Origin: Elusimicrobiota bacterium
GTDB lineage: Bacteria > CG03 > SLGR01 > JAGXOG01
Assembly (NCBI GenBank): GCA_051745145.1
Contig: JBNJDT010000001.1
Span: forward strand, 25,899-89,898
DNA: 64,000 bases
Reading direction: 5' to 3'
This document shows, in pieces, positions 10,432-63,549 of this stretch (position 1 is its first letter; each line of letters starts with the position of its first letter). The notes beneath the pieces were generated by a model. That model saw only the letters and a list, made by a program, of their open reading frames with translations, did not search any database and was not told the DNA's origin. Both the position numbers and the translations under genes were made by a program.

Positions 10432-10482
10432 TTTTAATTATTATTTAACTTTACTCTGAAATTTTAAATCCTGCGGCCAATG

Positions 10483-44062: not shown

Positions 44063-45033
44063 TTTTTTTTATGAAAAAATATAAAATATTTTCGTCTCTT
44101 ATTACTCTATTAGTTTTCATCTGCGCAGATACTTACGGAGAAAGCGGAGAAGCGGCGGGCATCACCTTAACTAAACCTGTAACAGCTTCCCAGGCAGTTT
44201 TATACAATGCGGTTTCCGGGGACACCGGTTTAAAAACTTTTGGAGTTAATCCCGCGGGCTTAACAGGCCTGGAAAAAAGAGAATTATCATTTATGTACAA
44301 CCGGGGACATTTTGAAGATGATTTTGTGTCGGCAACCTACGGACAGCAGATTTATTCAGTATATATCGGAGCCAATGTAATTTATAGAACCACCGGTAAA
44401 GTAGGTATTTATACCTCCGGCGGTGAATACGTAAAAGAGATAGGGCAGGAAGACACTGTTTTTTCTTTAACCGCTTCCCTGCCGGGGATACCCGGGTATA
44501 ACATGCCGGTGGGTATTAATTTAACTATGTTAGAATCCAGTATTTTTGGATATTCTGCTACATCTTATCTTATAGATGCCGGTACCCAGAAAACAATAAA
44601 TTTTAAAAATAGCAATTTGCGGTTAGGGGCTAGCCTGAGAAATCTCGGTACAAAACTTAAATATTTAGAAAAATATTCAGATATACCCTCTTCAATGCAG
44701 ACGGGTTTAAAATATTCTATAGCCATAGGGGAGGATAAATTATCTGCAAATTCTGATTTAAACTTCCCCCTTAATTCTAAAGATATTTATCTTATGGGGG
44801 GCTTGGATTATAAAGTGATTTTAAATACTGAAGGCACTTTTACCAGAGGTGGAGTTTTTGACAGTTTAACTTTTATGACAGGAGGAAAAATGAATATAAA
44901 TTCAGAAAATTCTAATCCCAGAATAAATTTAGGTTTGGAGATAGAAACAAAACCTTATACATTCAGCTATGTAATGAATCTGGTTCAAGACATTAATTTA
45001 GGTCACTATATATCTTTAGGATTTAAACTTTAA
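44059..45033 (+). CDS. Outer-membrane beta-barrel protein, PorP/SprF-like (candidate cognate partner of the upstream CTD cargo)
   Basis: 324 aa. Signal peptide (true start probably the MKKYKIF at 44071). The N-terminal region VNPAGLTGLEKRELSFMYNRGHF resembles the PorP/SprF INPAYAGS...LTGLYRNQW block. The protein is beta-strand-rich with alternating hydrophobics and ends in an aromatic/hydrophobic C-terminus (LGFKL). Its ATG overlaps the adhesin stop (ATGA). Confidence 0.45.
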   Translation: MIFFMKKYKIFSSLITLLVFICADTYGESGEAAGITLTKPVTASQAVLYNAVSGDTGLKTFGVNPAGLTGLEKRELSFMYNRGHFEDDFVSATYGQQIYSVYIGANVIYRTTGKVGIYTSGGEYVKEIGQEDTVFSLTASLPGIPGYNMPVGINLTMLESSIFGYSATSYLIDAGTQKTINFKNSNLRLGASLRNLGTKLKYLEKYSDIPSSMQTGLKYSIAIGEDKLSANSDLNFPLNSKDIYLMGGLDYKVILNTEGTFTRGGVFDSLTFMTGGKMNINSENSNPRINLGLEIETKPYTFSYVMNLVQDINLGHYISLGFKL

Positions 45034-45041
45034 GGTCTGCC

Positions 45042-48078: not shown

Positions 48079-48609
48079 ATGCTGAAAGAATATCTTACTC
48101 CCGTAAATATTACTCTTTTATTTTTAATTATTACAACTACCTTTACGGATTTAAAATATCAGAAAATTTACAACCATTTTACCTTTCCCTGCATAATATT
48201 GGGATGGGGCTTTAACTTAATGGAAAACGGATTTATTGAAGGTTTTTACAGAACTGCTTTTTTAGGATTTCTTGCCGGAGGGGCCCTTCTTTTCATTTTT
48301 TACATGGCCGGGGGGATGGGGGCCGGTGATGTGAAATTTTTAGCTGCAGTCGGCGCTCTTAAAGGCCCTCACTTTGTATTCAATGCTACACTTCACGGTG
48401 CTATATTAGGTGGTGTATTTACAGTGCTCTATCTATTATTTACCGGTCATCTTATTGAAACTATCTCCAACACTGCTACGATAATATACAGAACCTTGAC
48501 TTTAAAAAAATTAAATGTACAATCAAAAGAAATGGAGGGGGTTTATCTCCCGTACGGTTTTTTTCTAAGTTTAGGTGTAGTTTCCTGGTTTTTAATTAAT
48601 AAATTATGA
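48079..48609 (+). CDS. tadV: Type IV prepilin peptidase, short TadV/CpaA-type (A24 family)
   Basis: 176 aa polytopic membrane protein. Catalytic Asp motifs (TFTDLKYQKIYN...; GGMGAGDVKFLAAVGA). It lacks the N-terminal methyltransferase domain, as in the Flp-pilus peptidases. Confidence 0.7.
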   Translation: MLKEYLTPVNITLLFLIITTTFTDLKYQKIYNHFTFPCIILGWGFNLMENGFIEGFYRTAFLGFLAGGALLFIFYMAGGMGAGDVKFLAAVGALKGPHFVFNATLHGAILGGVFTVLYLLFTGHLIETISNTATIIYRTLTLKKLNVQSKEMEGVYLPYGFFLSLGVVSWFLINKL

Positions 48610-51069: not shown

Positions 51070-52425
51070 ATGAAAAAAGAAATTAAAATAACAATTCTTT
51101 TCCTCCTTTTTGGAATGATTCTTTCACTTAATTTTGGAAAAGTAGAAGATCCGGATTTATTCTGGCATTTAAAAACAGGAGAAGAAATAGCCGCAGAAGG
51201 TTTCGTCAGCAATGATCCCTTTTCCTGGACTTTCCCGGGAAAGGAATGGCTTAATCACGAGTGGTTAACTCAATTTATTTTTTATACAGCCTCCCCTTCC
51301 GGAAATTTACTTCCCCTTATATTTTTAAAAATTATCTTAATAACAGCTACTTTCGGACTCTTATTTTATTTAATAGCCCAAAAATCCAGCTTTACTACGG
51401 CCACTGTATATACGGGTTTAGGAGCTATGCTTTCTTCAATAGCTTTTACTATACGCCCCTGGATATTTTCCTATTTTTTACTTGTCCTTTTTCTTCTGGC
51501 TCTTGAAAAGAAAAAATTTTATTTTATACCTATTATTTTTTTACTGTGGATAAATTTCCACGGCATATTTATTTTTGCCCTGGGAATTCTTTTTGTAGAA
51601 GCCTTAAATGAAATTATTGTGAAAAAGCGCTACCGGCTTTCAAAAACTTTTGCTGCTTCTATCGGTATAATGCTAATAAATCCAAATGGTCTCAAAGGTT
51701 TACTTCATCCTTTCTCATATCTTTACGGCTCAACTAATATACATCTTAACTATATTATGGAATGGGCCAGTCCGGATTTTAAGGGAATATGGGGGGGGAT
51801 TTTTATCATTTTTATTTTTCTTTCTATTTTTGCCCTTACCTATTCGGAAGAAAAACCAGAATTTAAAAATATGTTTCTTTTTTTTGTTTTCATGGCCTCC
51901 GGCTTACTGGCGATAAGAAATATTCCTTTTTTTGTAATTATTACCGGCATTACCGTTTCAAAATCTTTTGACAGGATCCCCGCCTTCCAAAAACCCTTAA
52001 CAACCTACATCAGTATAGCCATTTTTACTCTCATTACTGTTATTTCTATTGAGGTACAGGTAAAAAAATTTTTTAACGACGGTTATATAAAAGAAAATAC
52101 TTTTCCGAGCAAACCTATAACAGATAAGCTCCAAGCTAACACCGAAAATCTTGTTCACCCCTATGATTGGGGCGGATATTTAATTTATCACAATATCCCG
52201 GTTTTTATAGATGGAAGAGCTGATTTCTATCCGGGTCAGTTTTTGGAAAATTTTTTTCTTTCAACCGAACTGAAAAAAAATCCGGAAAATTTTCTAAAAA
52301 AATACAAAATAAAAAAAATTCTATGGAAAACAGAAACACCCTTCTTTTACTATCTCAACAATTCCTCACTCTGGCAAAAAATTTATTCGGATGAAATATG
52401 TGCCGTATTTAAAAAAAATAAATAA
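51070..52425 (+). CDS. Polytopic GT-C-like membrane glycosyltransferase (PMT/ArnT-like), paralog 1
   Basis: 451 aa with more than 10 TM helices. First periplasmic loop has EDPDLFWHLKTGEEI (acidic DxD/ExD-type motif), then FSWTFPGKEWLNHEWLTQ. It is paralogous to the genes at 56407-57846 and 59373-60899. Confidence 0.45.
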   Translation: MKKEIKITILFLLFGMILSLNFGKVEDPDLFWHLKTGEEIAAEGFVSNDPFSWTFPGKEWLNHEWLTQFIFYTASPSGNLLPLIFLKIILITATFGLLFYLIAQKSSFTTATVYTGLGAMLSSIAFTIRPWIFSYFLLVLFLLALEKKKFYFIPIIFLLWINFHGIFIFALGILFVEALNEIIVKKRYRLSKTFAASIGIMLINPNGLKGLLHPFSYLYGSTNIHLNYIMEWASPDFKGIWGGIFIIFIFLSIFALTYSEEKPEFKNMFLFFVFMASGLLAIRNIPFFVIITGITVSKSFDRIPAFQKPLTTYISIAIFTLITVISIEVQVKKFFNDGYIKENTFPSKPITDKLQANTENLVHPYDWGGYLIYHNIPVFIDGRADFYPGQFLENFFLSTELKKNPENFLKKYKIKKILWKTETPFFYYLNNSSLWQKIYSDEICAVFKKNK

Positions 52426-52498
52426 TTGAAAGCATTCACTTTTTTTTAAAAACTTTATAACTGAATTAACTTTATTATTGCCTTTAGCAGTCCACAAA

Positions 52499-52558
52499 AG
52501 TACTAAAAAAAATAAGTACCTTAAACCGATTGACATAAACTATTAACTATATTATAGT
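52499..52558 (+). promoter_or_regulatory. Flp cassette 1 promoter: inverted repeat AGTACT-N10-AGTACC, then TTGACA, 17-nt spacer, TATAGT
   Basis: Seen directly in the sequence. -35 at 52530-52535 and -10 at 52553-52558. The inverted repeat lies immediately upstream (52499-52520). The SD AAAGGAGGT is 8 nt before the ATG. The same element layout is repeated before the other two cassettes. Confidence 0.6.
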
Positions 52559-52617
52559 TATAGTGAGACTAGGGAGAAAAGAATATATATTTAAATTTAA
52601 AAAAGGAGGTAAAAAAA

Positions 52618-52785
52618 ATGAAACATTTATTATGTGATGAATCAGGTCAGGGAATGACTGAGTACATTTTAATTGTTCTGTTAATTGCTATTGCCGCATT
52701 CGTTATCATGCAGGCATTTGGTAACACAATTTCAGAAGCCTTCAACGACGCTAAGAAAACCGTACAGAACGCAAGACCTGATTAA
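52618..52785 (+). CDS. flp: Flp/Fap family pilin (class III prepilin), copy 1
   Basis: 55 aa, MKHLLCDESGQGMTEYILIVLLIAIAAFVIMQAFGNTISEAFNDAKKTVQNARPD, with the Flp motif G/xxxxEY plus a hydrophobic stretch. Strong SD. The gene is missed by the 60-aa ORF track. Confidence 0.8.
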   Translation: MKHLLCDESGQGMTEYILIVLLIAIAAFVIMQAFGNTISEAFNDAKKTVQNARPD

Positions 52786-52813
52786 TCCCAAAATTAAGAA
52801 GGTAACAAGCATA

Positions 52814-52860
52814 CTTCCGGAGTTTTTTATAAAGCTCCGGAAGTTGCATTTACAATGGTC
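52814..52860 (+). terminator. Rho-independent terminator after flp copy 1
   Basis: CUUCCGGAGUUUUUUAUAAAGCUCCGGAAG hairpin (9-14 bp stem) followed by a U-rich tract. The sequence is conserved after all three cassettes. Confidence 0.6.
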
Positions 52861-53223
52861 AACAAAACCTTAAAATCAAACTCCAGTATCCACTTACCTG
52901 CTGCATACCGTAGCCGCAGGATATCCAGTTAAATCCTTCTCACCAGGATATGCCCTCCTGCTGTAATTATCAAAAGTACCCACTTTGCGGATATTATCAA
53001 CTTAAGATCATAAATCCGTAGTCTCCCTCCTGAAATTGAGAAAGATTGCCCGGTACCGGTTAAACTGCTCTTATCATTGTGAGCGGAGACCAGAATAATA
53101 GTTCTGCTGACAGTAAAGCTCTAATAATTGAAATAATACAGTCAAATTTCTATAACGTTAATTACTTCAAAAATGTAATTATTTAATAAATTATCCGGCC
53201 TATTTTTTCTAATATACCCTAAA

Positions 53224-53283
53224 AGTACTATAAATAATCAGTACCTTAAACCGATTGACATAAAAAGCTAACTGTATTATAAT
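53224..53283 (+). promoter_or_regulatory. Flp cassette 2 promoter: inverted repeat AGTACT-N10-AGTACC, then TTGACA, 17-nt spacer, TATAAT
   Basis: Perfect consensus -35 (53255-53260) and -10 (53278-53283). Conserved upstream inverted repeat at 53224-53245. SD GAGGAGGT. Confidence 0.65.
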
Positions 53284-53339
53284 TATAGTGAATTAAAGGA
53301 AAAGAGAGTGTAAGAGGAATTTAAGAGGAGGTAAAATAT

Positions 53340-53507
53340 ATGAAACATTTATTATGTGATGAATCAGGTCAGGGAATGACAGAATACATTTTAATTGTTC
53401 TGTTAATTGCTATTGCCGCATTCGTTATCATGCAGGCATTTGGTAACACAATTTCAGAAGCCTTCAACGACGCTAAGAAAACCGTACAGAACGCAAGACC
53501 TGATTAA
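53340..53507 (+). CDS. flp: Flp/Fap family pilin, copy 2 (protein identical to copy 1; synonymous nucleotide differences)
   Basis: 55 aa identical to copy 1. For example, GAATGACAGAATAC here versus GAATGACTGAGTAC in copy 1. Confidence 0.8.
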   Translation: MKHLLCDESGQGMTEYILIVLLIAIAAFVIMQAFGNTISEAFNDAKKTVQNARPD

Positions 53508-53535
53508 TCCTACAATCAAGAAGGTAACAAGCATA

Positions 53536-53577
53536 CTTCCGGAGTTTTTTTTAAAAGCTCCGGAAGTTGTGTTTTAT
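53536..53577 (+). terminator. Rho-independent terminator after flp copy 2
   Basis: CUUCCGGAGUUUUUUUUAAAAGCUCCGGAAG, then UUGUGUUUUAU. Confidence 0.6.
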
Positions 53578-53636
53578 ATCATAAATTTTTAAGTAACTAT
53601 TCTACAATTTCCTTCCGGTCTATTTTTAATAACAAA

Positions 53637-53696
53637 AGTACTATATATAATTAGTACCTTAAACCGATTGACATAAAAAGCTAACTGTATTATAAT
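53637..53696 (+). promoter_or_regulatory. Flp cassette 3 promoter: inverted repeat AGTACT-N10-AGTACC, then TTGACA, 17-nt spacer, TATAAT
   Basis: -35 at 53668-53673 and -10 at 53691-53696. Inverted repeat at 53637-53658. SD AAAGGAGGA. Confidence 0.65.
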
Positions 53697-53753
53697 TATA
53701 CTGTATTAAGGAAAAAGAGAATATAAGAGGAAATAATAAAGGAGGAAAAATAT

Positions 53754-53921
53754 ATGAAACATTTATTACGTGACGAATCAGGTCAGGGAATGACTGAGTA
53801 CATTTTAATTGTTCTGTTAATTGCTATCGCTGCATTTGTTATCATGCAGGCATTTGGTAACACCATTTCAGAGGCTTTTAACGACGCTAAACAAACTGTA
53901 GGGAACGCAAGACCTGATTAA
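53754..53921 (+). CDS. flp: Flp/Fap family pilin, copy 3 (variant: C6R, K47Q, Q51G)
   Basis: 55 aa, MKHLLRDESGQGMTEYILIVLLIAIAAFVIMQAFGNTISEAFNDAKQTVGNARPD. Confidence 0.8.
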   Translation: MKHLLRDESGQGMTEYILIVLLIAIAAFVIMQAFGNTISEAFNDAKQTVGNARPD

Positions 53922-53949
53922 TCCTAAAATTAAGAAGGTATAAAGCATA

Positions 53950-53990
53950 CTTCCGGAGTTTTTTTTAAAGCTCCGGAAGTTGTGTTTTTT
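53950..53990 (+). terminator. Rho-independent terminator after flp copy 3
   Basis: CUUCCGGAGUUUUUUUUAAAGCUCCGGAAG, then UUGUGUUUUUUAU. Confidence 0.6.
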
Positions 53991-54001
53991 ATAAGAATTT
54001 A

Positions 54002-55066
54002 ATGAAATTTTCACTCTTTGCTTGGGGGGGGATTCTTATTTTTTTGACTTCCTGTAAGTGCTTCCCTTTATCAAATACCCCCCAAATTCAAAAAAAATAT
54101 CAATATTCAAAAATAGACGGGAATATACCAATTATTTACTCTTCTCAATACGATATAACTTTATCGGGTCTTGAAAAACTCCATCCGTTTGACACTCAAA
54201 AATACAGCAAAAGTAAAAATTATTTAATTAGAAATTCGTCTCTACAGGAAAATCAGTTTTACGTTCCCAGAAAAGCAACCGAAAAAGATATTCTAAAAAT
54301 ACATACCAAGGATTATTTACAGACCCTCAATGATCCTAAAAATATAGCTAAAATTGCTGAGTTGTTTTCTCTGGCTTCACTGCCTATTAGGCAGCTTAAA
54401 GATGGAATACTAAAACCCATGCTATTTGCTACCGGAGGCACTCTACTGGCAACTGAATTATCATTAGATTACGGATGGTCAATTAATTTATCAGGCGGTT
54501 ACCACCATGCAAAAAAGGATCAGGGCAGCGGTTTTTGTTTTTACAATGATATTTCTATTGCAGTAAAAAAATTATTTGAGAAAAATCCTAAAATTATTGT
54601 GTTAATAATTGATTTAGATGTTCATCAGGGAAACGGAATTGCCGATACTGTTGGTAATATTCCCGGAGTATTTATATTCGATATTTATAACAGGGAAATA
54701 TTTCCCAGAGACGAAAAAGCAAAAAAATATATTGATTTTAATTTTCCGGTAAAATCCACCGTTACCGAAAAAGAATATTTAACCATTTTAAAAAAAGAAA
54801 TACCCGAAGCGTTAAAAAGCACAGACCCTGATCTGATAATTTATAATGCCGGTACCGATATATTCGAAAACGATAAAATTGGTAATTTAGATATTTCTTT
54901 TGAAGGCGTAATCAAACGGGACCAGATAGTATTTAATAATGCTCTGGAACAGAAAATCCCCATAACCATGGTCTTATCCGGAGGATACTCTCGGGAAAGC
55001 TACAGACTAATCGGTAAATCAATAGAAAATATATATAATAAGTGGCCTGAAATTTTTAAATATTGA
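54002..55066 (+). CDS. Histone deacetylase (HDAC)/acetoin-utilization AcuC superfamily deacetylase with lipoprotein-type signal peptide
   Basis: 354 aa. N-terminal hydrophobic segment ending LTSC (lipobox-like). HDAC catalytic motifs GGYHHAKKDQGSGFCFYND and IDLDVHQGNG. Confidence 0.7.
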   Translation: MKFSLFAWGGILIFLTSCKCFPLSNTPQIQKKYQYSKIDGNIPIIYSSQYDITLSGLEKLHPFDTQKYSKSKNYLIRNSSLQENQFYVPRKATEKDILKIHTKDYLQTLNDPKNIAKIAELFSLASLPIRQLKDGILKPMLFATGGTLLATELSLDYGWSINLSGGYHHAKKDQGSGFCFYNDISIAVKKLFEKNPKIIVLIIDLDVHQGNGIADTVGNIPGVFIFDIYNREIFPRDEKAKKYIDFNFPVKSTVTEKEYLTILKKEIPEALKSTDPDLIIYNAGTDIFENDKIGNLDISFEGVIKRDQIVFNNALEQKIPITMVLSGGYSRESYRLIGKSIENIYNKWPEIFKY

Positions 55067-55071
55067 AAATT

Positions 55072-56268
55072 TTAACTATTACCGCCTCTGTAAATATAAA
55101 TATGGGAAAGTACAAATATCCCCAATGTACTCAAAACAGGGGGCATAGAACTTAAAAGTATATTAAAAGAAGACGATGAGACTATATTTAAATCAGCCGG
55201 CCATCCCCAAATAACAATACAAATTAAAAAAAATGACCACCTAGGATATTTTTTCTCAAAAGGAATATAACGACTTAATATTATAAGACAGGGAAACAAA
55301 AGAACCTGGTAATTAATCCAGGATAACGGTGAGAGTAAAAGAGAAAGTGAAACAGATTTATTAAATAGATCATCCACAGGACCGGTCCATAACCGCGGAT
55401 AAAATACAATGCCTCCTAAAATAACCGCTAAGGTCCATCCCCATTTAGATATATTTAAGGCATAACTTAAGGATATAATAGAGTAATTGCCAATTTTTCC
55501 GTACCATAGCTGTGAACGAGGTATTATATCAGTTATATAATATAATACTTCCCTGAAACCTATAATATAAAATGAGATTAACAGAAGGCCGACCGTAGCT
55601 ATAGCCGCTTTCAAAAAATTTTTTTTATCCCTGTGCCCTGTCACCGCAAACCAAAGAAATGGAAATAATTTTAAACTCCCAGCTATGCCCCACAAAAAAT
55701 TACCGGTAAAGTTTTTTTTATTGCGCAGTTTATACCATCCCAAAACCCCAAACAATACAATCCACATTTCCATATGATTTCTCTTAAGTAAAAATAGAAA
55801 GGGTGCTGATCCTAAAAATATAATAGAAATAATAACAGATAATTTCTTAGAATACCCCATTTCTCTTGCCGTAAAAGTTAAAAGTCCCAATAATAATAGT
55901 ACAGAAAAAACTGCAAACATTATCCAGGACACTTTATATGGAAAAAGGGACAGGGGGCTTACAAAAATTATTCCGGTTGGCGGGATGGACGGATACAGGT
56001 CATACTCCCAGCCGAGTTCTTCATAAACATCTTTTTTCAAATCCTCATACATAGCTTCACCTGAAAATAATCTTTGGGCGGGAAAATAATAGTTGGGATA
56101 GTCTTCCGGGTCCGTACCATTAAGCGTTTTAGGAAATTCCCGAACAGAATACCCAAAAAAAGTTATAAGGGAAATCAAAGCAATTACAATACCCAGCCAA
56201 AAAGGAAAACTGTTTTTTTTAGCTCTTCCCTTTTCCCTTACATTTTTGTTTACATCACTGGCATTCAT
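55072..56268 (-). CDS. Polytopic membrane protein, putative glycosyltransferase (GT87/DUF2029-like)
   Basis: 398 aa with about 10 TM helices. Loop 1 is acidic (TDPEDYPNYYF...MYEDLKKD). It sits inside the glycosyltransferase island. Confidence 0.35.
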   Translation of the reverse strand: MNASDVNKNVREKGRAKKNSFPFWLGIVIALISLITFFGYSVREFPKTLNGTDPEDYPNYYFPAQRLFSGEAMYEDLKKDVYEELGWEYDLYPSIPPTGIIFVSPLSLFPYKVSWIMFAVFSVLLLLGLLTFTAREMGYSKKLSVIISIIFLGSAPFLFLLKRNHMEMWIVLFGVLGWYKLRNKKNFTGNFLWGIAGSLKLFPFLWFAVTGHRDKKNFLKAAIATVGLLLISFYIIGFREVLYYITDIIPRSQLWYGKIGNYSIISLSYALNISKWGWTLAVILGGIVFYPRLWTGPVDDLFNKSVSLSLLLSPLSWINYQVLLFPCLIILSRYIPFEKKYPRWSFFLICIVIWGWPADLNIVSSSSFNILLSSMPPVLSTLGIFVLSHIYIYRGGNS

Positions 56269-56406
56269 ATAAATAAATTAAAATACCTCTAATATTCGTC
56301 TATTCTACTAAATAAGAAGTTATAACCGGATTATACATATAACTCTTTTTAATTATAAAAATAAAAATATATATTAAAATTTTACATACCCCGCAATTTT
56401 ACTTTT

Positions 56407-57846
56407 TTACTTTTTTTCTAAAAGAATGAATAAACCTTTTTTATTCTTTGCCGTAATTTCCCAGTTATTTTCAATTAATTTTTTATAAAGCGGGGAATTA
56501 TAAGTAGGCACTATTTCCTTTATTATACTGTAATCAAATTCTCTTTTATCAGGATTTATTAATAAAACTGCGTCAGTGTTATATTTATCAAGAATTTTTT
56601 TCCAATTATTTTCGGCTGACAAAACTGTTAAATATTCGTGAAATAAATTTAAAGAATAAATCTCAAGTCGACTATCTATAAAAACTTTTTTTCCAGTAAT
56701 AAAATGCACCCAGCCGCCCAGTTCATAATAAGTAAAAACATTGAAATTCTGTTTTGTTTTCAATCTTCTGTTTATTTTAGGAGATAAAGGATATTTACCG
56801 GCAAGTGCATATTTTTTAGAATTATCCCCTACTTTAAAAAATACAATAATAAATAACATTCCCAATATTATAAAATTTATTATCGTTTTTCTGTTTTTTT
56901 TAACCTGATGCATCTTAATTTTAATTTTTTTAAAAACCGGGATTTCAAAATTTATAAATATTAAAAAACTGCTGATTAAAACTAAGTGATAATGCCTTAT
57001 TGCAGAATAGAAAAGTAACATAGATGCCATAAAGAGTAAAGTTTTCGGTAAAGTCTCCTCTTTTTTATATTTCAAATATCTATAAAATATTAACCCTGCC
57101 ATTATGAGTATTGAAAGCCTCATAAAAACCGGCGGCGTAGCCCACTCCCTTAAATATAAATTATGTCTATTCTGTAGAATAAACTGAAAAGGCACCCCAA
57201 GCAGCTTTATTCCATATGGATTAATTAATAGAAGTATTATAGTAAAAAATAATAGGCTAAAATGGGTCCGTAATTTTTTATACTGTTTAATTCTGATATA
57301 TTCAATTGCAAAAATAGCCCAGATAATAATACCCAGTACCCAGCCGCCGTGCAGATTAAACCATCCCCACATTATTATAGGAAAAGCATAATTGAATTTA
57401 TTTTCACTTTGAAAGAGCCAAAAAACAAATATAAAAAGAAAATTAGTTAGGATATAAGGGCGGGTATACCAAAACTGGTTAAAACCTAACAGTATCACTG
57501 CAAATAATATTACACCGTATAATTGATATAAGTTTTTTTTATTTATCAGGGAGAATAATATTATCCAGATCCCCGCCATGACCAAACCCCGAAATAAATA
57601 GAGTCCCTGAAAACCACTAACTTTGTAAATTAGATAAAATAAAGTTGAACCCAGCCATGAATGAGCAATCCATTTTTTTTTGTAATTTGTATAAGTAAAT
57701 GTATCTTCCTTGGGCACTTCACCCTCAGAATATACCTGTTTTCCGATAGATAGATGCCACCAGATGTCAGTTTCATTATTAAATTGTTTGACACTTAAAA
57801 AAGAGATACACACTAAAATAAAGAGTAGCGGGGGTATTTTATTCAT
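56407..57846 (-). CDS. Polytopic GT-C-like membrane glycosyltransferase (PMT/ArnT-like), paralog 2
   Basis: 479 aa. ETDIWWHLSIGKQV...TFTYTNYKKKWIAHSWLGS, the same motif architecture as paralogs 1 and 3. Confidence 0.45.
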   Translation of the reverse strand: MNKIPPLLFILVCISFLSVKQFNNETDIWWHLSIGKQVYSEGEVPKEDTFTYTNYKKKWIAHSWLGSTLFYLIYKVSGFQGLYLFRGLVMAGIWIILFSLINKKNLYQLYGVILFAVILLGFNQFWYTRPYILTNFLFIFVFWLFQSENKFNYAFPIIMWGWFNLHGGWVLGIIIWAIFAIEYIRIKQYKKLRTHFSLLFFTIILLLINPYGIKLLGVPFQFILQNRHNLYLREWATPPVFMRLSILIMAGLIFYRYLKYKKEETLPKTLLFMASMLLFYSAIRHYHLVLISSFLIFINFEIPVFKKIKIKMHQVKKNRKTIINFIILGMLFIIVFFKVGDNSKKYALAGKYPLSPKINRRLKTKQNFNVFTYYELGGWVHFITGKKVFIDSRLEIYSLNLFHEYLTVLSAENNWKKILDKYNTDAVLLINPDKREFDYSIIKEIVPTYNSPLYKKLIENNWEITAKNKKGLFILLEKK

Positions 57847-57862
57847 AAATACAAACGTATTT

Positions 57863-58573
57863 TTATTTTTCCCCTACCACAAGCATTGAATTGCCAAAAT
57901 TAAAATTTAAAATATTATCTACAATTTTAAGTACCGGTAAAAACTTATCAAAGAATATAATCTGAAAAGTAGATATTTTTTGCTTCTTCCTGATTTTACT
58001 GTTTAAAAACCATCCAAAAGCTCCCACTCTGTTAAAATACTGAAAGTGTTTTATCTTAAATCCGGCTTTGTTTACTTTATTAATTAAATCTTTTTTTTCA
58101 TACCTTCTGCAATGCCCCACATTCTCGTCAATGCTTCCAAATAACAGCTCATGGCTGGGTACAATAATTATTATATTGCCTTTCTGTTCCGTTAATTTAT
58201 ACATATTTGCCAGGGCTCGCTCATCCTGTTTAATATGTTCTAAAATATTTACGCAGAGTATAGATTTAAATTGAGTATTTATTTTAGCTAAAATTTGCGG
58301 GTTACTTATATCGCAATTTATTAGTTCAATATCAGGAAAATCAAGTTTCATATATTTTAGATATTTTTCATTAATATCAACTGCAGTAACTTCCCGGTTG
58401 CGATTTAAATACTGTGTTAAATTACCTATGCCGCAACCAATTTCAAGTACATTTGTATTGCTGAGAAATGGTTCAATTTTTTTAAAAAGCCAGTTATTAT
58501 AATTACTGCACAATGCCATTAATCTTAAAGTTATATAACTTATCTTTTCTTTTTTTCCTATTTTTTTATTCAT
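57863..58573 (-). CDS. Class I SAM-dependent methyltransferase
   Basis: 236 aa. Motif I VLEIGCGIGNLTQYL and motif II-like VDINEKY. Confidence 0.7.
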   Translation of the reverse strand: MNKKIGKKEKISYITLRLMALCSNYNNWLFKKIEPFLSNTNVLEIGCGIGNLTQYLNRNREVTAVDINEKYLKYMKLDFPDIELINCDISNPQILAKINTQFKSILCVNILEHIKQDERALANMYKLTEQKGNIIIIVPSHELLFGSIDENVGHCRRYEKKDLINKVNKAGFKIKHFQYFNRVGAFGWFLNSKIRKKQKISTFQIIFFDKFLPVLKIVDNILNFNFGNSMLVVGEK

Positions 58574-58629
58574 TTATTAACCTTATTAAATATTCAATCT
58601 CATTTCTATTTTCAGCAACAAGATTTACC

Positions 58630-59355
58630 CTAACAATTATAGTGTCCTAATAAATTTTTAATTTTTATTTTTATAAGTTCATATCCTATAAAAACAGAAT
58701 CTTTAAACGGTGATAATTTTGTTTCAAAGCTATTTTTCCAGACAATGGGGACCTCTTTAATTTTATAACCTTTTTTTTGCGAAATAAATAAAATTTCCGG
58801 GTCAAAACCAAAACCGCAAACAGTCTGACAGGAAAAAACATCTTTAGCTACTTCCCGTTTAAAAAGTTTAAACCCACACTGAGAATCTCTTATACCGGGT
58901 AATAACATTATTCTAACCAGCAGCCCAAAAAGTTTTCCCATTTTATCCCGGAAAAAATTTTGAGGAACTATTTTTTCCGATCCTGCAAGGCCCCGGGAAC
59001 CTATTGCAATATCATATTCTTTTTGAGTTATCTCCTTCTCTAATTTTTCATATTCTTCTATTGGAGTAGAAAGGTCAGCATCAGAAAATAAGATTAATTT
59101 CCCCCTGGCTTTAAGCATCCCCCACTTAACGGCGGCTCCTTTTCCACGATTCTTGAAAAAAGAATGAATTTTTAACGGTATATTAGTATTAAAATTTTTA
59201 ACTTTATTTACCGTTTGATCTTTTGACCCGTCGTCCACAATTATTATCTCAGTTTTAATACCCCGCCGGTCAATATAATCACTGATTCTATTTAAAGCTT
59301 TTATAATTCGGTTTTCTTCATTATAACACGGGATAACTATTGACAGTTCAGTCAT
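58630..59355 (-). CDS. GT2 family glycosyltransferase, polyprenyl-phosphate sugar synthase type (Dpm1/ArnC/GtrB-like)
   Basis: 241 aa. SIVIPCYNEENRI...IIVDDGSKDQT...SRGLAG, the typical dolichyl/undecaprenyl-phosphate hexose synthase fold. Confidence 0.75.
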   Translation of the reverse strand: MTELSIVIPCYNEENRIIKALNRISDYIDRRGIKTEIIIVDDGSKDQTVNKVKNFNTNIPLKIHSFFKNRGKGAAVKWGMLKARGKLILFSDADLSTPIEEYEKLEKEITQKEYDIAIGSRGLAGSEKIVPQNFFRDKMGKLFGLLVRIMLLPGIRDSQCGFKLFKREVAKDVFSCQTVCGFGFDPEILFISQKKGYKIKEVPIVWKNSFETKLSPFKDSVFIGYELIKIKIKNLLGHYNC

Positions 59356-59372
59356 TTATTTTAACCTCTCCT

Positions 59373-60899
59373 TTAATTCTTCCTCTTAAATAGAATTCCA
59401 GCCCGGCCGGATAATATTTTTTCCCAGTTTTTAGCATCTCGTAAAATTTCTATAATATACTCATTTTTATTTCTATTTAATATAACTGTTTTTACATCAT
59501 ATTTATCAAGGACTTCTTCCCAGCCTGCTTTCCCCTCATAAACTATCCAGTAATCACTCCATATATCTTTTGGAACTATATGCATTCTCGTACCAAAAAA
59601 AGGACTGTAATCGGGCCAGAGCCGCCATATGATATAACTACCCCAGTCACTGTAATTAAAAATATTTCCCGGCAAAGTATGTTTCTCCATATAATCGGCA
59701 ACTTCCACCGGCTGCTGACGGGGATCTATAAAATATTTCATTCTGCTACCGGGTAGTTTTTTTCTGAAGTAAGGAGAAAATATTATTACAGAACCTAACA
59801 TACAAAGCAAAATTATTCCATTAATATAACTATTACCCTTATCTTCTCCGGCTTTTAAAAAATATAATTTACTGTCTGAGGTAAGAGAATCAATAATTGA
59901 TTGGAAATGGCGGGCAAATACAGCGGAAAATATAATCCCCCACCAGATAACCATCCTCAGGTGCAGTAAACTCTGATAAGTAAAAAATAAAAATAAAATT
60001 ATCTCTTCAATTTTTATCTTTGTATTACTTTTCAATACTGTGCCAAACCCGGCGAGCAGGGAAATATAAAAGATAAGCCCGGTTGGGGTATTAATAGTCA
60101 AAGGAAGCCATTCTGCGGACCGATATGACGCCTTATCCATAGTGTTGAAAACACTTTCCCATATCCGTATTCCGTAGGGATTTAAAAGAGTAGCTAAAGA
60201 TACCGCAGCTAACAAAATAAAAAGAGACTGGATTTTTTTATCAAATATAATTTTTGTTAAAGTTTTTTTATTTAAATATATTTTTATGCTTTTTGAAACC
60301 AAAAATATCCCGATTAAGCCAATACCCGCCGGGAAACTATTGTGTAAATTTGCCCATAAAACCATAAGGAGAAAAAATATCCCGACCTGAGATTTTTTGA
60401 TTTTTTGACCGGCATACAAAAATGAAAAATAATAAATGAAAATCGGCAGTACAAACAACTGGGGCCGCAAATTCCAGTTAGTTAACCCGGTAAGTATGTA
60501 CATAAACGAGAACAAAAAGCAGACTTTATAATTAATATTCACACGAAGCAGTAGTTTTATAAATATATATAACGAAAGTAACAGAATGAAAGCATTTAAC
60601 AGGATAAGAATTTCCTTACCCCCGGCAGAGTGAAACACTGCCAGTACAACTTGAGAAAGCCAGCCGTGGTTAATATATTCCATGCCCGATAAAGTATGTG
60701 TGAATATATCTTGAGATAATACAGCCCCGTTTTCAATCATCACTTCCCCCATGCGAATATAATAACCTAAATCCTCCGGGGCTAAATAAGAACTAAAAAC
60801 ACCGATTAGCACAATAAAAAATGGGGTTGTATAGTAAAGTTTTTTAAGAGAGAAAAAAGATAAAAACTTTTCTTTTCTCATAATTACAATATATCCCAA
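59373..60899 (-). CDS. Polytopic GT-C-like membrane glycosyltransferase (PMT/ArnT-like), paralog 3
   Basis: 508 aa. APEDLGYYIRMGEVM...FTHTLSGMEYINHGWLSQ motif set. More than 10 TM helices. Confidence 0.45.
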   Translation of the reverse strand: MGYIVIMRKEKFLSFFSLKKLYYTTPFFIVLIGVFSSYLAPEDLGYYIRMGEVMIENGAVLSQDIFTHTLSGMEYINHGWLSQVVLAVFHSAGGKEILILLNAFILLLSLYIFIKLLLRVNINYKVCFLFSFMYILTGLTNWNLRPQLFVLPIFIYYFSFLYAGQKIKKSQVGIFFLLMVLWANLHNSFPAGIGLIGIFLVSKSIKIYLNKKTLTKIIFDKKIQSLFILLAAVSLATLLNPYGIRIWESVFNTMDKASYRSAEWLPLTINTPTGLIFYISLLAGFGTVLKSNTKIKIEEIILFLFFTYQSLLHLRMVIWWGIIFSAVFARHFQSIIDSLTSDSKLYFLKAGEDKGNSYINGIILLCMLGSVIIFSPYFRKKLPGSRMKYFIDPRQQPVEVADYMEKHTLPGNIFNYSDWGSYIIWRLWPDYSPFFGTRMHIVPKDIWSDYWIVYEGKAGWEEVLDKYDVKTVILNRNKNEYIIEILRDAKNWEKILSGRAGILFKRKN

Positions 60900-61021: not shown

Positions 61022-61702
61022 TTAGGGGTGTTCATTTGTATCGGTCCAGTAAATAGGCATAAAAGTATCTATGGGCAACATATGTATAGCCATCCTGTTC
61101 ATCCAGGTTGAATTAGCTACGTAGTTTTCAGCGCCTAATTCATTCTCTCCGTCGCCCATCCACTCTTCCTCCCATTCCGGACCGCTGACCCCCATCCATC
61201 CCATACCTTCAGTAAAAAAATCCCAGACCTTATATTTATAAGTCATCCGGCAGTGGGCATAATTAGGTCCTAATGGCGACACATCCATATCAAGCATAGC
61301 AAGCATAGGTTCCATTCTAATCTGTAAATCCACCAGCAGTTGCATTATAGTAAACCCCCCAAAAACCATACCATTCCCCTCACCGGTTTCCACCTCCACT
61401 ATTTCTACCTGTTCGTTATCTATATATTTGCCCAACCACTCTTGAGCTAAATCATTGGCTTTTGACTCCATTGAACTCGCATCCGCATCGTCATCATATA
61501 CCGGTTCCCAGGCTGCCGCCCTGGAAATATTCTCAATCGTCACATCAGTTATAAACCACTGTCCGAACCACCATATTCCCATAAGTACAAGAAAATATAG
61601 AGGTGAGACCATCAATAACTCTAACATAGACTGACCTTTTTGATTTTTTATTATTTTTCTAAAAAAATTCATTAATCCGGCTCCACTAATTTTGCTCTCC
61701 AT
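61022..61702 (-). CDS. TadE/TadF-like pseudopilin
   Basis: 226 aa. The N-terminal KGQSMLELLMVSPLYFLVLMGIWWFG matches the TadE-like motif (G-Q-S-x-V/L-E-F/L then hydrophobic helix). Confidence 0.55.
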   Translation of the reverse strand: MESKISGAGLMNFFRKIIKNQKGQSMLELLMVSPLYFLVLMGIWWFGQWFITDVTIENISRAAAWEPVYDDDADASSMESKANDLAQEWLGKYIDNEQVEIVEVETGEGNGMVFGGFTIMQLLVDLQIRMEPMLAMLDMDVSPLGPNYAHCRMTYKYKVWDFFTEGMGWMGVSGPEWEEEWMGDGENELGAENYVANSTWMNRMAIHMLPIDTFMPIYWTDTNEHP

Positions 61703-62688
61703 CCCCCGCCTTTGGCCGCATCATAGTACGAATATATAGGATCCGAGGTACTGCAGCTGTCATTGGGCGTTGTAGTAGTAAACATGGGCCCGTCGCCTTT
61801 ATCGCCTACTTCGGTATTATATACTACCGCCCTGGACTCTGAAGTTACCCATCCAACATTGTCTTCACCGAATATATTTCCAAAAAATTCCGTATTTTTA
61901 CTAACTTCCCAGGTCTGTGACAAACTGTCTTTAAAAGCCTCTTCATCTTCTATATAAGCCCAACTGTCTAAATTGTCCGGGACAATTTCTTTTCCAATAG
62001 CCGGCCAATACTCGCAGCACTGACAGCTCGGCGGACTGCCGCAGGGCTCGCACATTACCTTGGTGGGATAAATCTTTATATCAAGTTCTTCCCGGGACAA
62101 ATTTAAACCATCCCATTCTGTTGCCTGAATATATACATCTCCGACAGGGAACCTTGACATTATAAAAGGCATAATTCCGCTGAACTGGTCTTCTTCAACT
62201 GATCTTAAAGTTCTCAGGGCAGCCCTCCGGGCCAACGCCTGGCCGTACCCCCTCATGGGGTCATCAGTTTCAGCATCCATTAAACTATCTATCATGGGGG
62301 TTATCGTATCGACGGCATCTTTTATATTTTCAGCTCTGGTATCGTTAGTATCCTTACAGCTGCATCCACAAATCTGACCGTCAAATGGCCATACAAATTT
62401 AGGAGAAAAATAAGAATCCAGTGAAAGTTTGACCGCAAGCTGACCGCTCAAGGCCCCTATTAAATTAAGAACTCTGGCCCGGGCCACTGCCCCGGTTAGA
62501 GCAGCGTTATCCGCTGCATTACCAACCTGAATTCTATTTCTCACTAACATCCCCACGTTTATCATGGTATACCAGAATAATACCAGCGAGAATATAGAAA
62601 AAGCACCGATTATTAACATCTGACCCCGACAATCCCGTTTAAGATCTTTCAGTTTACTTACAAATTTTTCATTTATTTTTCTAAGCAT
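61672..62688 (-). CDS. TadG-like Flp pilus assembly protein
   Basis: 338 aa. N-terminal RGQMLIIGAFSIFSLVLFW...VGMLVRNRIQVGNAADNAALTGAV, the TadE/G-like Tad domain. Cys-rich central region. Confidence 0.55.
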   Translation of the reverse strand: MLRKINEKFVSKLKDLKRDCRGQMLIIGAFSIFSLVLFWYTMINVGMLVRNRIQVGNAADNAALTGAVARARVLNLIGALSGQLAVKLSLDSYFSPKFVWPFDGQICGCSCKDTNDTRAENIKDAVDTITPMIDSLMDAETDDPMRGYGQALARRAALRTLRSVEEDQFSGIMPFIMSRFPVGDVYIQATEWDGLNLSREELDIKIYPTKVMCEPCGSPPSCQCCEYWPAIGKEIVPDNLDSWAYIEDEEAFKDSLSQTWEVSKNTEFFGNIFGEDNVGWVTSESRAVVYNTEVGDKGDGPMFTTTTPNDSCSTSDPIYSYYDAAKGGGWRAKLVEPD

Positions 62689-62707
62689 TTTATTTTTCCC
62701 TCATATT

Positions 62708-63250
62708 TTAATACGGAGTATCGGCATCGTATTCATCACCGCCATCCCATGTCTGGGGCATTTCCGCTATAGCGCTCTGCTGGATGGTTCCTAATGGATT
62801 ATTAAACATTACATCATCCATACCCCCGGTTACCATACTGGGACCTGAAAAAGGCATTGATAATTTATTGGGATGGGGGAAAAACGGTAGTTGTTTCCAT
62901 AAATAGTTCTGGCCCATTTCTACTTCCACCTGGTCGCTGTTATCATCCACCTGTTCAACAGAGCCCATCATGGGCAATATACCTCCCATACCCGGATGCT
63001 TTGCGAACATATTTTTAATATCGCTTCCAAAACCAAATGTATAGCCGTTATAGTCGTCAAGCACCTTCACCTGATTTGCTCTGGCTCCCCGATGCGCTGC
63101 AAGAATGGTAAGCAGCTTCCCGGTAACAAGCAACCCTATCTGCAAAGTCCCAAGAATTAAACTTATCATAAGCATAGTTGAAAATATAGTTTCAACCATT
63201 GCCTGACCGCTGTTTTTCAGTTTTTTAACTTTTTTATCTATCACGGCCAT
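62708..63250 (-). CDS. TadE-like pseudopilin
   Basis: 180 aa. GQAMVETIFSTMLMISLILGTLQIGLLV TadE motif. Confidence 0.6.
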   Translation of the reverse strand: MAVIDKKVKKLKNSGQAMVETIFSTMLMISLILGTLQIGLLVTGKLLTILAAHRGARANQVKVLDDYNGYTFGFGSDIKNMFAKHPGMGGILPMMGSVEQVDDNSDQVEVEMGQNYLWKQLPFFPHPNKLSMPFSGPSMVTGGMDDVMFNNPLGTIQQSAIAEMPQTWDGGDEYDADTPY

Positions 63251-63501
63251 TGTCCTCCATTTGTCATAAACGGCGGTACATACATCATGGGAGTAACGCC
63301 TTTTTTCATATTTTCATAAAAACTCTCGATTGCTGTTTTAAACCCACTGTCTATCCAGACTAAAGAGAGAGCAATAAGTGAGACAACAAGAATATATTCG
63401 GTCATCCCCTGGGCTTCTTCCTCTATGATTAATGCTTTTATAAGTTTAAACATTTCTTTTATCCTCAATATAATATTATAATAAAAGCGTTGTTTTGTCA
63501 A
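63241..63501 (-). CDS. Flp-like pilin variant (longer mature domain)
   Basis: The ORF contains EEAQGMTEYILVVSLIALSLV (Flp G/xxxxEY motif). The probable start is MFKLIKALIIEEEAQGMTEY at about 63453, giving a prepilin of about 70 aa. It overlaps the tadE start. Confidence 0.5.
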   Translation of the reverse strand: MTKQRFYYNIILRIKEMFKLIKALIIEEEAQGMTEYILVVSLIALSLVWIDSGFKTAIESFYENMKKGVTPMMYVPPFMTNGGQWP

Positions 63502-63549
63502 CCCTACAAAAGTACTATTTTTAAATCTTCCCTTATGAAATTTAGAGTC

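What the first reader, a model, noticed from the sequence alone, without database searches (positions are those of the whole stretch)
52440..54000. Three tandem autonomous Flp-pilin cassettes, each with a near-consensus sigma70 promoter, strong SD and terminator
Each 55-aa Flp prepilin gene (copies 1 and 2 identical in protein, copy 3 with three substitutions) carries the same set of elements. These are TTGACA-17-TATAAT/TATAGT, an AAAGGAGG SD, a conserved 3'UTR and the same long hairpin terminator. This is a strongly insulated gene-dosage arrangement rather than one operon. The synonymous differences between copies 1 and 2 indicate long-term maintenance under purifying selection. The genes are below the 60-aa ORF threshold and would be missed by default gene callers.
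Basis: seen in the sequence. Interest (0 to 1): 0.6.

Follow-up and report, generated by a model that had tools for sequence, protein, structure and literature searches.

The report
Three tandem Flp pilin gene cassettes
An uncultured Elusimicrobiota bacterium carries three nearly identical, separately packaged copies of the gene for the small subunit of its adhesive Tad/Flp pilus; this is a real and tidy but fairly ordinary way to make a lot of one structural protein, and the public annotation already names all three genes.

Summary
ORFs at 52618-52785, 53340-53507 and 53754-53921 (+) encode 55-aa proteins; copies 1 and 2 are identical and copy 3 differs at three residues. Each sits behind TTGACA-17-TATAAT/TATAGT and a GGAGG Shine-Dalgarno site, and ahead of the same strong hairpin.

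They are Flp (Tad, type IVc) prepilins:
- They carry the G/XXXXEY motif, with predicted cleavage at G10|Q11 and a 45-aa mature pilin.
- A family profile hits the solved Caulobacter PilA and Flp pilins.
- A TadV-type peptidase, TadE/TadG-like pseudopilins and a fourth Flp-like gene lie in the window.

- Gene callers did not miss the genes. NCBI lists them as three consecutive "Flp family type IVb pilin" proteins.
- The near-identity of copies 1 and 2 reflects gene conversion, not long purifying selection. Their coding sequences are 99% identical, but their 5'UTRs are 68% identical. Evidence for purifying selection comes from copy 3 (dN/dS about 0.08).
- Copy 1's hairpin lacks a good U-tract, so insulation is incomplete.

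Relatives carry 5-6 divergent flp genes packed in one operon. Multi-copy and separately transcribed Flp pilins are already known, so interest is low to moderate. Transcription is untested.

The parts
52496..52851 (+). Cassette 1. Inverted repeat 52500-52519, -35 at 52530-52535, -10 (TATAGT) at 52553-52558, SD 52603-52609, flp coding sequence 52618-52785, hairpin 52813-52844 with a U-poor tail.
52860..53195 (.). Unrelated spacer of about 310 nt between cassettes 1 and 2. Its core is 44% GC against 33% for the cassettes. It has no convincing ORF, no Rfam match, and only mild excess folding (z about -2.3). Unexplained.
53190..53603 (+). Cassette 2. Inverted repeat 53225-53244, -35 at 53255-53260, -10 (TATAAT) at 53278-53283, SD 53325-53331, flp coding sequence 53340-53507, hairpin plus U-tract 53535-53577.
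53604..54000 (+). Cassette 3. Inverted repeat 53638-53657, -35 at 53668-53673, -10 (TATAAT) at 53691-53696, SD 53740-53745, flp coding sequence 53754-53921 (C6R, K47Q, Q50G), hairpin plus U-tract 53949-53990.
48079..48609 (+). Prepilin peptidase of 176 aa with only the A24 domain (TadV/CpaA type). It is the likely processing enzyme for the Flp prepilins.
   Evidence: Pfam PF01478, E 4e-18. Its homologues sit next to flp genes in at least nine other loci.
63241..63453 (-). Fourth, divergent Flp-like prepilin of 70 aa (MFKLIKALIIEEEA|QGMTEYILVV...). It heads the pseudopilin operon. Its own TTGACA promoter-like site has AGTAC 10 nt upstream (63496-63516).
   Evidence: No Pfam hit at E <= 0.01.
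61022..63250 (-). Three pseudopilin genes: TadE-like (62708-63250), Tad/TadG-like (61672-62688) and TadE-like (61022-61702).
   Evidence: Pfam PF07811 and PF13400 above gathering score. The same gene order follows the flp array in L002.
51070..52425 (+). Uncharacterised polytopic membrane protein of 451 aa, directly upstream of cassette 1. It is found beside the flp-tadE locus in three related genomes.
   Evidence: 39-45% identity to neighbours of the flp operons in L001, L002 and L081. No Pfam or NCBIfam hit.

Best explanation
The region holds three paralogous, single-gene transcription units for the major Flp (Tad, type IVc) prepilin of an Elusimicrobiota bacterium.

Shown by sequence:
- A unit of about 360-415 bp has been duplicated as a whole. 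It comprises an upstream inverted repeat, a near-consensus sigma-70-type promoter, a purine-rich 5'UTR with a strong SD, a 55-codon ORF, and a 3'UTR with a GC-rich hairpin.
- The copies evolve in concert. The coding sequences of copies 1 and 2 have been homogenised by gene conversion.
- The protein is under purifying selection.

Inferred:
- Each copy gives its own abundant message of about 285 nt.
- The 55-aa prepilin inserts into the inner membrane. The TadV-like A24 peptidase (48079-48609) cuts it between G10 and Q11, leaving a 45-aa mature pilin that starts QGMTEY.
- The pilin is polymerised into a Tad pilus. The minor pilins would be flp4 and the TadE/TadG-like proteins at 61022-63453 (-), and the assembly machinery is encoded outside the window.
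- Tripling the transcription unit raises the supply of the one subunit needed in bulk.
- The shared GTACT-N10-AGTAC repeat, centred about 56 nt upstream of the predicted start, would let one regulator switch all copies together.
For: Flp identity:
- Pfam Flp_Fap E 1e-5 and 1.6e-6, covering 43 of 46 model positions.
- Thirteen of 14 aligned relatives hit PF04964.
- The family profile hits solved Tad pilins 8u1k (C. crescentus PilA) and 8u2b/8ucr at E 3e-5 to 6e-5, with their E5-Y6 aligned to the window's EY.
- NCBI names all three 'Flp family type IVb pilin'.

Context: an A24-only peptidase, TadE/Tad/TadE genes and a fourth Flp-like gene are in the window.

Autonomy of the units:
- The promoters score 12/12, 12/12 and 11/12. 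The two 12/12 sites are the only perfect matches in 64 kb.
- The hairpins have z-scores of -6.5 to -7.1.
- The repeat unit includes promoter and hairpin, and identity collapses to 42-50% outside it for copy 1.

Concerted evolution and selection: mosaic topology with p = 8.7e-7, and dN/dS of 0.07-0.09 against copy 3.

Possible regulator site: GTACT-N10-AGTAC occurs exactly only at the three cassettes. AGTAC-N10-TTGACA recurs at the unrelated flp4 promoter.
Against: - There are no transcript data, so promoter and terminator activity are consensus matches only.
- Both Pfam scores (25.6 and 28.3 bits) are below the gathering score of 32.2, and no NCBIfam model hits.
- No TadA/CpaF ATPase, TadB/C platform protein or secretin is in the 64-kb window.
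- Copy 1's hairpin lacks a proper U-tract.
- The sequence comes from a metagenome-assembled genome. Copy number and the mosaic pattern could be distorted by misassembly of repeats that share identical stretches of about 126 nt.
- A dosage benefit is untested.
- Conservation of the inverted repeat among the three copies may just reflect shared ancestry.
Confidence: 0.65

Rival explanations
1. Termination cascade or read-through. The three genes are largely co-transcribed from the first promoter. The hairpins act as partial terminators or mRNA stabilisers that set the ratio of pilin message to downstream message. The internal promoter copies would contribute little.
For: Copy 1's hairpin has a weak U-tract. 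The HDAC-family gene at 54002 starts 21 nt after copy 3's hairpin and has no promoter-like site of its own, so some read-through is needed. From memory and not checked here: the A. actinomycetemcomitans flp-tad operon uses a terminator after flp-1 in this way.
Against: The internal promoters are the best sigma-70 matches in the window, and the stretch from the inverted repeat to the -10 box is 97% identical between copies 2 and 3 while the adjacent 5'UTR has drifted to 80%. This fits conservation of the promoters. A 310-nt unrelated spacer separates copies 1 and 2.
Confidence: 0.15
2. Functional diversification rather than dosage. Copy 3 encodes a variant pilin. Its mature form differs at K47Q and Q50G in the C-terminal tail. 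It would be used under different conditions, co-polymerised, or used to vary a surface epitope or phage receptor.
For: Two of the three substitutions fall in the C-terminal part of the mature pilin and the third is in the leader. Differentially regulated flp paralogues are documented in Bdellovibrio (PMC5430801).
Against: The stretch from the inverted repeat to the -10 box is 97% identical between copies 2 and 3, which gives no sign of different regulation. Copies 1 and 2 are identical proteins. dN/dS is well below 1.
Confidence: 0.12
3. Assembly artefact. The true locus has a different number of copies, or the mosaic pattern comes from mis-joining reads of strain variants across the repeat.
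For: The source is a metagenome-assembled genome. Copies share identical runs of more than 100 nt. No closely related genome or contig could be found for comparison.
Against: The three copies have distinct flanks, distinct 5'UTRs and a unique spacer. These are hard to produce by collapse or chimerism, and the contig is 105 kb with normal chromosomal genes around the locus.
Confidence: 0.05
4. The products are not pilins. They would be another kind of small membrane or secreted peptide that only resembles Flp through a hydrophobic helix.
For: The Pfam score is below the gathering threshold, there is no NCBIfam hit, and no core Tad machinery is in the window.
Against: The proteins have an exact G/XXXXEY motif. 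The family profile matches solved Tad pilins in register. The closest homologues sit at the head of flp-TadE-TadG-TadE operons. A TadV-type peptidase and pseudopilins are nearby.
Confidence: 0.03

Closest known systems
flp arrays of related Elusimicrobia-like genomes (L002 = HGW-Elusimicrobia-2, L001, L081)
   Same: These hold the closest pilin homologues found (52-54% identity). There are several flp genes side by side. They are followed by TadE/Tad/TadE genes and sit beside an orthologue of the 451-aa membrane protein.
   Different: Those arrays hold 5-6 old, divergent paralogues (27-59% identity) packed -7 to 70 nt apart. In L002, the array read in full, they sit behind one promoter-like site with no internal hairpins. 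Here one paralogue, the counterpart of gene 4, sits apart from the pseudopilin operon and is present as three near-identical units, each with its own promoter and hairpin.
Haemophilus ducreyi flp1-flp2-flp3 (and A. actinomycetemcomitans flp-1/flp-2) in the flp-tad operon
   Same: Two or three tandem Flp prepilin genes with the G/XXXXEY motif (PMC3201912; the A. actinomycetemcomitans case is from memory).
   Different: Those genes are the first genes of the long flp-tad operon and share its promoter. The copies here are detached from the assembly genes, and each has its own signals.
Bdellovibrio bacteriovorus flp1-flp4
   Same: Multiple Flp pilin genes in one genome, some lying away from the tad operon with their own promoters (PMC5430801).
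   Different: The Bdellovibrio paralogues are diverse, scattered and differently regulated (FliA-dependent or not). The copies here are near-identical, adjacent and share the same promoter architecture.
Major Flp pilin genes with a dedicated promoter (Bradyrhizobium bsl1442; C. crescentus pilA and P. aeruginosa flp from memory)
   Same: The major pilin is transcribed separately from the machinery genes (PMC12918737). This matches the logic proposed here. The 45-aa mature length equals that of the solved C. crescentus PilA chain.
   Different: Those are single-copy genes. The regulators known there (CtrA and PprB, from memory) have different binding sites from GTACT-N10-AGTAC.

Membership tests
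Flp/Fap pilin (Pfam PF04964; Tad / type IVc pilin) | Match to the family HMM at the curated threshold | tested here: inconclusive
   E-values are 1e-5 and 1.6e-6 over 43 of 46 model positions, but the scores of 25.6 and 28.3 bits are below the gathering score of 32.2. The database's precomputed annotation lists PF04964.20 for the copy-3 protein, and NCBI names all three Flp family type IVb pilin. There is no NCBIfam hit.
Flp/Fap pilin (Pfam PF04964; Tad / type IVc pilin) | Flp motif: Gly at -1, then XXXXEY, so that Glu5 and Tyr6 of the mature pilin are followed by a hydrophobic helix of about 20 residues | tested here: met
   The sequence reads MKHLLCDESG|QGMTEYILIVLLIAIAAFVIMQAF. E5-Y6 of the solved 45-residue chains 8u1k and 8u2b align with this EY.
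Flp/Fap pilin (Pfam PF04964; Tad / type IVc pilin) | Very small prepilin (about 50-80 aa) with no globular head domain | tested here: met
   The prepilin is 55 aa and the predicted mature pilin is 45 aa.
Flp/Fap pilin (Pfam PF04964; Tad / type IVc pilin) | Dedicated TadV/CpaA-type prepilin peptidase (A24 domain without a methyltransferase domain) in the locus | tested here: met
   The 176-aa protein at 48079-48609 has PF01478 only, E 4e-18. Its homologues are adjacent to flp genes in L003, L005, L009, L013, L059, L066, L084, L091 and L104.
Flp/Fap pilin (Pfam PF04964; Tad / type IVc pilin) | TadE/TadF/TadG-type pseudopilins encoded nearby | tested here: met
   PF07811, PF13400 and PF07811 match at 62708-63250, 61672-62688 and 61022-61702 (-), all above gathering scores.
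Flp/Fap pilin (Pfam PF04964; Tad / type IVc pilin) | Core Tad machinery in the genome (TadA/CpaF ATPase, TadB/TadC platform, RcpA/CpaC secretin) | tested here: inconclusive
   None was found among the ORFs of at least 100 aa that were scanned, which covers nearly all non-overlapping ones in the 64-kb window. The rest of the 105-kb contig and of the genome could not be read.
Flp/Fap pilin (Pfam PF04964; Tad / type IVc pilin) | The processed peptide is polymerised into a surface filament | not testable with these tools
   This needs microscopy and mass spectrometry on the uncultured organism or on a heterologous host.
Autonomous (monocistronic) bacterial transcription unit | Own sigma-70-type promoter upstream of each gene | tested here: met
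   This holds at the sequence level only. The sites score 11/12, 12/12 and 12/12 with a 17-nt spacer, and the two 12/12 sites are the only perfect matches in the window. Activity was not tested.
Autonomous (monocistronic) bacterial transcription unit | Intrinsic terminator (GC-rich hairpin followed by a U-tract) after each gene | tested here: inconclusive
   Copies 2 and 3 have a hairpin followed by UGUGUUUUAU or UGUGUUUUUU and are called terminators. Copy 1 has the same hairpin followed by UGCAUUUACA and is not called.
Tandem paralogues under concerted evolution (gene conversion) | Discordant phylogeny between adjacent segments of the repeat | tested here: met
   In the flanks, sites where copy 1 is the odd one out number 27 against 9 for copy 3. 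In the coding sequence the counts are 0 against 14. Fisher p = 8.7e-7. Caveat: the source is a metagenome assembly.

The most novel reading that the evidence does not exclude
The three cassettes and the separate flp4-pseudopilin operon form a small regulon. An unidentified dimeric regulator would bind GTACT-N10-AGTAC, or the AGTAC half-site placed 10 nt upstream of -35. Recombination between the cassettes would change copy number, giving a heritable dial for piliation. The ORF-less, GC-richer 310-nt spacer would encode a new small RNA tied to this control.
Probability: 0.08. Interest if true: 0.5.

Novelty: new member of a known kind. Interest (0 to 1): 0.22.

Why it matters
Tad pili drive adhesion, biofilm formation and surface sensing. 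Elusimicrobiota are almost entirely uncultured, so a clean map of their pilin genes helps predict how they attach to surfaces or hosts. That map covers the likely processing site, the minor pilins and a conserved neighbouring membrane protein.

The locus is also a compact example of how a bacterium can amplify a whole promoter-gene-terminator module and keep the copies alike by gene conversion. The parts (promoter, UTR, terminator) could be useful as strong expression signals for this phylum.

It does not change what is known about Tad pili. Multiple and separately transcribed Flp genes are already documented.

Tried and rejected
- Exact-sequence look-ups of the pilins and of the neighbouring deacetylase-family protein found no contig on record. 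No annotated copy of the locus, or of the rest of the contig, could be read.
- Scans of genome and metagenome collections with the pilin gave nothing closer than 54% identity. The suggested comparison of cassette number across close relatives was therefore impossible. Only distant relatives could be compared.
- The spacer at 52860-53195 gave no explanation. There is no Rfam family at E <= 1 beyond chance-level hits. It has no similarity to the rest of the window or to the 80 loci held at that point. Six-frame translation gives no long ORF. Folding z-scores are only -2.2 to -2.4 on either strand. A minus-strand small RNA (promoter-like site 53161-53133, hairpin 52993-52977) was considered but has no support beyond consensus matches.
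- The hairpin as a dispersed repeat element (REP or MITE-like) is rejected. The direct and inverted repeat scans found it only at the three cassettes.
- Homology between the 1766-aa cadherin-like protein and the 1713-aa protein next to the L002 array is rejected (E 0.72).
- GTACT-N10-AGTAC was sought in 160 related loci and not found. There is therefore no comparative support for it as a regulator site.
- A regular 414-nt tandem array is rejected. Tandem Repeats Finder reports none, and the spacings are 722 and 414 nt.
- The first literature query was too broad and returned irrelevant papers.
Full report
**Observation.**
Reading 52200-54300 and listing small ORFs confirms three 55-codon ORFs at 52618-52785, 53340-53507 and 53754-53921 on the + strand.
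- Copies 1 and 2 encode the same protein (MKHLLCDESGQGMTEYILIVLLIAIAAFVIMQAFGNTISEAFNDAKKTVQNARPD). They differ by two synonymous changes.
- Copy 3 differs at C6R, K47Q and Q50G, plus 10-12 synonymous codons.
- A consensus scan finds TTGACA-17-TATAGT at 52530-52558 and TTGACA-17-TATAAT at 53255-53283 and 53668-53696. Over the whole 64-kb window the two perfect matches are the only ones. With up to one mismatch there are 6 sites against 0.97 expected, and no shuffle reaches 6.
- GGAGG lies 8 nt before each ATG.
- Each stop codon is followed, after a 27-nt conserved 3'UTR, by the hairpin ACTTCCGGAG-loop-CTCCGGAAGT. Its free energy is -26.4 to -28.7 kcal/mol and its z-score is -6.5 to -7.1. Searches found this hairpin only at the three cassettes.

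So the description is accurate, with three qualifications:
- The start-to-start spacings are 722 and 414 nt, so the repeat is not regular.
- Copy 1's hairpin is followed by UGCAUUUACA and is not scored as a terminator.
- Copy 2's SD reads GAGGAGG.

**What the genes are.**
- Pfam Flp_Fap matches both protein variants over 43 of 46 model positions (E 1e-5 and 1.6e-6). The scores, 25.6 and 28.3 bits, are below the gathering score of 32.2. No NCBIfam model matches.
- A search of the large protein collection finds the copy-3 protein itself, with precomputed PF04964 and the NCBI name 'MAG: Flp family type IVb pilin [Elusimicrobiota bacterium]'. It also finds relatives of 47-60% identity, many of them named Flp pilins.
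- The cluster look-up shows that all three genes are annotated in NCBI under consecutive accessions MGM0440866.1, MGM0440867.1 and MGM0440868.1, on a 105,644-bp contig.
- An alignment of the window proteins with relatives has an invariant QGMTEYIL core.
- A profile of that alignment hits the solved Tad pilins 8u1k (Caulobacter PilA) and 8u2b/8ucr at E 3e-5 to 6e-5. Residues E5-Y6 of those 45-residue mature chains align with the window's EY.
- This places the cleavage site between G10 and Q11, which is the classical G/XXXXEY Flp motif. It predicts a 10-aa leader and a 45-aa mature pilin.

**Context.** Scanning nearly all non-overlapping ORFs of at least 100 aa in the window shows these relevant genes:
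- An A24-only prepilin peptidase of 176 aa at 48079-48609. Its homologues sit beside flp genes in at least nine other loci.
- On the minus strand, an operon-like run: a fourth, divergent Flp-like gene (63453-63241, found with a custom HMM; sequence), then TadE-like, Tad/TadG-like and TadE-like genes (63250-61022).
- No TadA/CpaF, TadB/C or secretin gene. The assembly machinery must lie elsewhere, and this could not be checked.

The surroundings are ordinary chromosome. They include a cell-division and cell-wall (dcw) gene cluster, RNase P RNA, tRNAs and PEPCK.

**Anatomy of the repeat.** Aligning the three units shows that the duplicated module is a whole transcription unit. It starts at a conserved AAAAGTACT about 30 nt upstream of the -35 box and ends just after the hairpin. 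Identity differs by segment:

| Segment | c1-c2 | c1-c3 | c2-c3 |
|---|---|---|---|
| Inverted repeat to -10 box | 86% | 84% | 97% |
| 5'UTR | 68% | 67% | 80% |
| Coding sequence | 99% | 92% | 90% |
| Hairpin | 97% | 97% | 100% |

- Outside the module, copy 1 is unrelated to copies 2 and 3 (42-50% identity). Copies 2 and 3 continue to align, so those two form a true 414-bp tandem duplication.
- The flanks group copy 2 with copy 3, whereas the coding sequence groups copy 1 with copy 2.
- Counting informative sites shows the switch. In the promoter, UTR and 3' flank, copy 1 is the odd one out at 27 sites and copy 3 at 9. In the coding sequence the counts are 0 and 14 (Fisher p = 8.7e-7).
- The simplest reading is gene conversion of the coding region between copies 1 and 2.
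- The two synonymous differences between copies 1 and 2 are therefore too few to argue for long maintenance. They are fewer than the 32% divergence of the adjacent UTR would predict.
- Purifying selection is nevertheless clear from copy 3. dS is 0.36-0.45, dN is 0.03 and dN/dS is 0.07-0.09 (p <= 3e-5).
- Caveat: in a metagenome assembly, mis-joining within repeats could mimic a mosaic.

- A perfect inverted repeat, GTACT-N10-AGTAC, lies just upstream of every -35 box (52500-52519, 53225-53244, 53638-53657). It occurs nowhere else in the window.
- Its proximal half-site sits exactly 10 nt from TTGACA. The same AGTAC-N10-TTGACA arrangement occurs at the promoter-like site of the otherwise unrelated flp4 gene. 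These are the only four matches in the window, even when one mismatch is allowed.
- This hints at a shared activator site centred near -56. There is no comparative support, because the motif is absent from 160 related loci.
- Between copies 1 and 2 lies a spacer of about 310 nt with 44% GC. It has no convincing ORF, no Rfam match, no similarity to anything fetched, and only mild structure. It stays unexplained.
- The next gene, a lipoprotein-like deacetylase-family protein at 54002, begins 21 nt after copy 3's hairpin with no promoter-like site. Some read-through must therefore occur.

**Comparison with relatives.**
- No close relative exists in the genome or metagenome collections. The best is 54% identity.
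- The nearest relatives are L001, L002 (HGW-Elusimicrobia-2) and L081. They carry five or six flp genes that are only 27-59% identical to one another and are packed -7 to 70 nt apart. In L002, which was read in full, they sit behind one TTGACA-17-TACAAT site and are followed by TadE/Tad/TadE. An orthologue of the window's 451-aa membrane protein lies next to each of the three arrays.
- The window's pilin is most like gene 4 of those arrays.
- Among 160 loci, other tandem flp pairs duplicate only the coding sequence.
- Relative to its nearest known kin, this genome has kept one Flp-like gene with the pseudopilins. It carries the presumed major pilin as three self-contained, near-identical units beside the conserved membrane-protein gene.

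**Mechanism.**
Most likely (about 0.65): there are three monocistronic major-pilin genes. Their amplification supplies the subunit needed in large excess. TadV-like cleavage occurs at G10|Q11, and the pilin is assembled by machinery encoded elsewhere. The copies are kept alike by gene conversion and purifying selection.

The sequence anatomy, the family assignment, the selection and the conversion signal are shown. Promoter and terminator activity, processing, assembly and the dosage benefit are inferred.

Rivals are a termination-cascade or read-through arrangement (0.15), functional diversification of copy 3 (0.12), an assembly artefact (0.05) and a non-pilin peptide (0.03).

**Known precedents and novelty.**
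- Tandem flp genes are known in H. ducreyi (PMC3201912).
- Bdellovibrio has four flp genes, with paralogues outside the operon that are differently regulated (PMC5430801).
- Bradyrhizobium has a Flp pilin with its own promoter (PMC12918737).
- Sinorhizobium has orphan pilin paralogues (PMC10934763).

The combination of three near-identical, adjacent units, each with its own promoter and hairpin, was not seen in the 160 loci surveyed. It is a modest architectural variant of a known theme, and the public annotation already names all three genes. I file it as a new member of a known kind and score interest at about 0.2.

Noticed in passing
window 10187-10432 (-): The bacterial class A RNase P RNA matches the full 367-position Rfam model (137 bits) but is only 246 nt long. 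Model segments of 30, 44 and 24 positions are absent and one of 28 is halved. It looks like an unusually minimised RNase P RNA.
   Followed up: partly
window 51070-52425 (+), 59373-60899 (-), 56407-57846 (-); L001 13415-14821, L002 11321-12772, L081 8342-9745: This is a family of polytopic membrane proteins of 450-510 aa with no Pfam or NCBIfam match. The 451-aa member lies directly upstream of the flp cassettes. Its 39-45% identical orthologues lie beside the flp-TadE operon in three related genomes, and the window holds two further paralogues. It may be an uncharacterised partner of the Tad locus.
   Followed up: partly
window 55072-60899 (-): Between the flp cassettes and the pseudopilin genes lies a run of glycan-type genes: GT87, an unknown 478-aa membrane protein, a methyltransferase, GT2 and the 507-aa membrane protein. 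They might modify the envelope or the pilin.
   Followed up: no
window 54002-55066 (+): A histone-deacetylase-family protein (PF00850, E 4e-56) has a lipoprotein-like N-terminus (LFAWGGILIFLTSC). It starts 21 nt after the third flp hairpin and has no promoter-like site of its own.
   Followed up: no
window 52860-53195: An ORF-less spacer of about 310 nt sits between cassettes 1 and 2. Its GC content is 44% against 33% for the cassettes. It has weak promoter-like and terminator-like sites on the minus strand (53161-53133 and 52993-52977) and no Rfam match. It could be a small RNA or a decayed gene remnant.
   Followed up: partly
window 52559-52617, 53284-53339, 53697-53753: The 5'UTRs of the three cassettes are purine-rich. 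They keep GGA motifs, one near the predicted 5' end and one in the SD, although the UTRs are only 67-80% identical overall. This recalls CsrA-type binding sites in flagellin leaders. It is from memory and was not tested.
   Followed up: no
window 38762-46910 (+): A 1766-aa protein has 12 cadherin-like beta-sandwich repeats (PF12733, E 2e-184). It is followed by a weak, sub-threshold PorV/PorQ-like outer-membrane protein and a 622-aa PAS plus P-loop ATPase protein. All three lie just upstream of the DUF47 and DUF192 genes and the prepilin peptidase gene.
   Followed up: no
window 63241-63453 (-): The fourth Flp-like prepilin has Ala rather than Gly at the predicted -1 position (EEEA|QGMTEY) and a longer proline- and methionine-rich C-terminus. 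It gave no Pfam hit at E <= 0.01, although it matched a family-specific HMM at 2e-10.
   Followed up: partly
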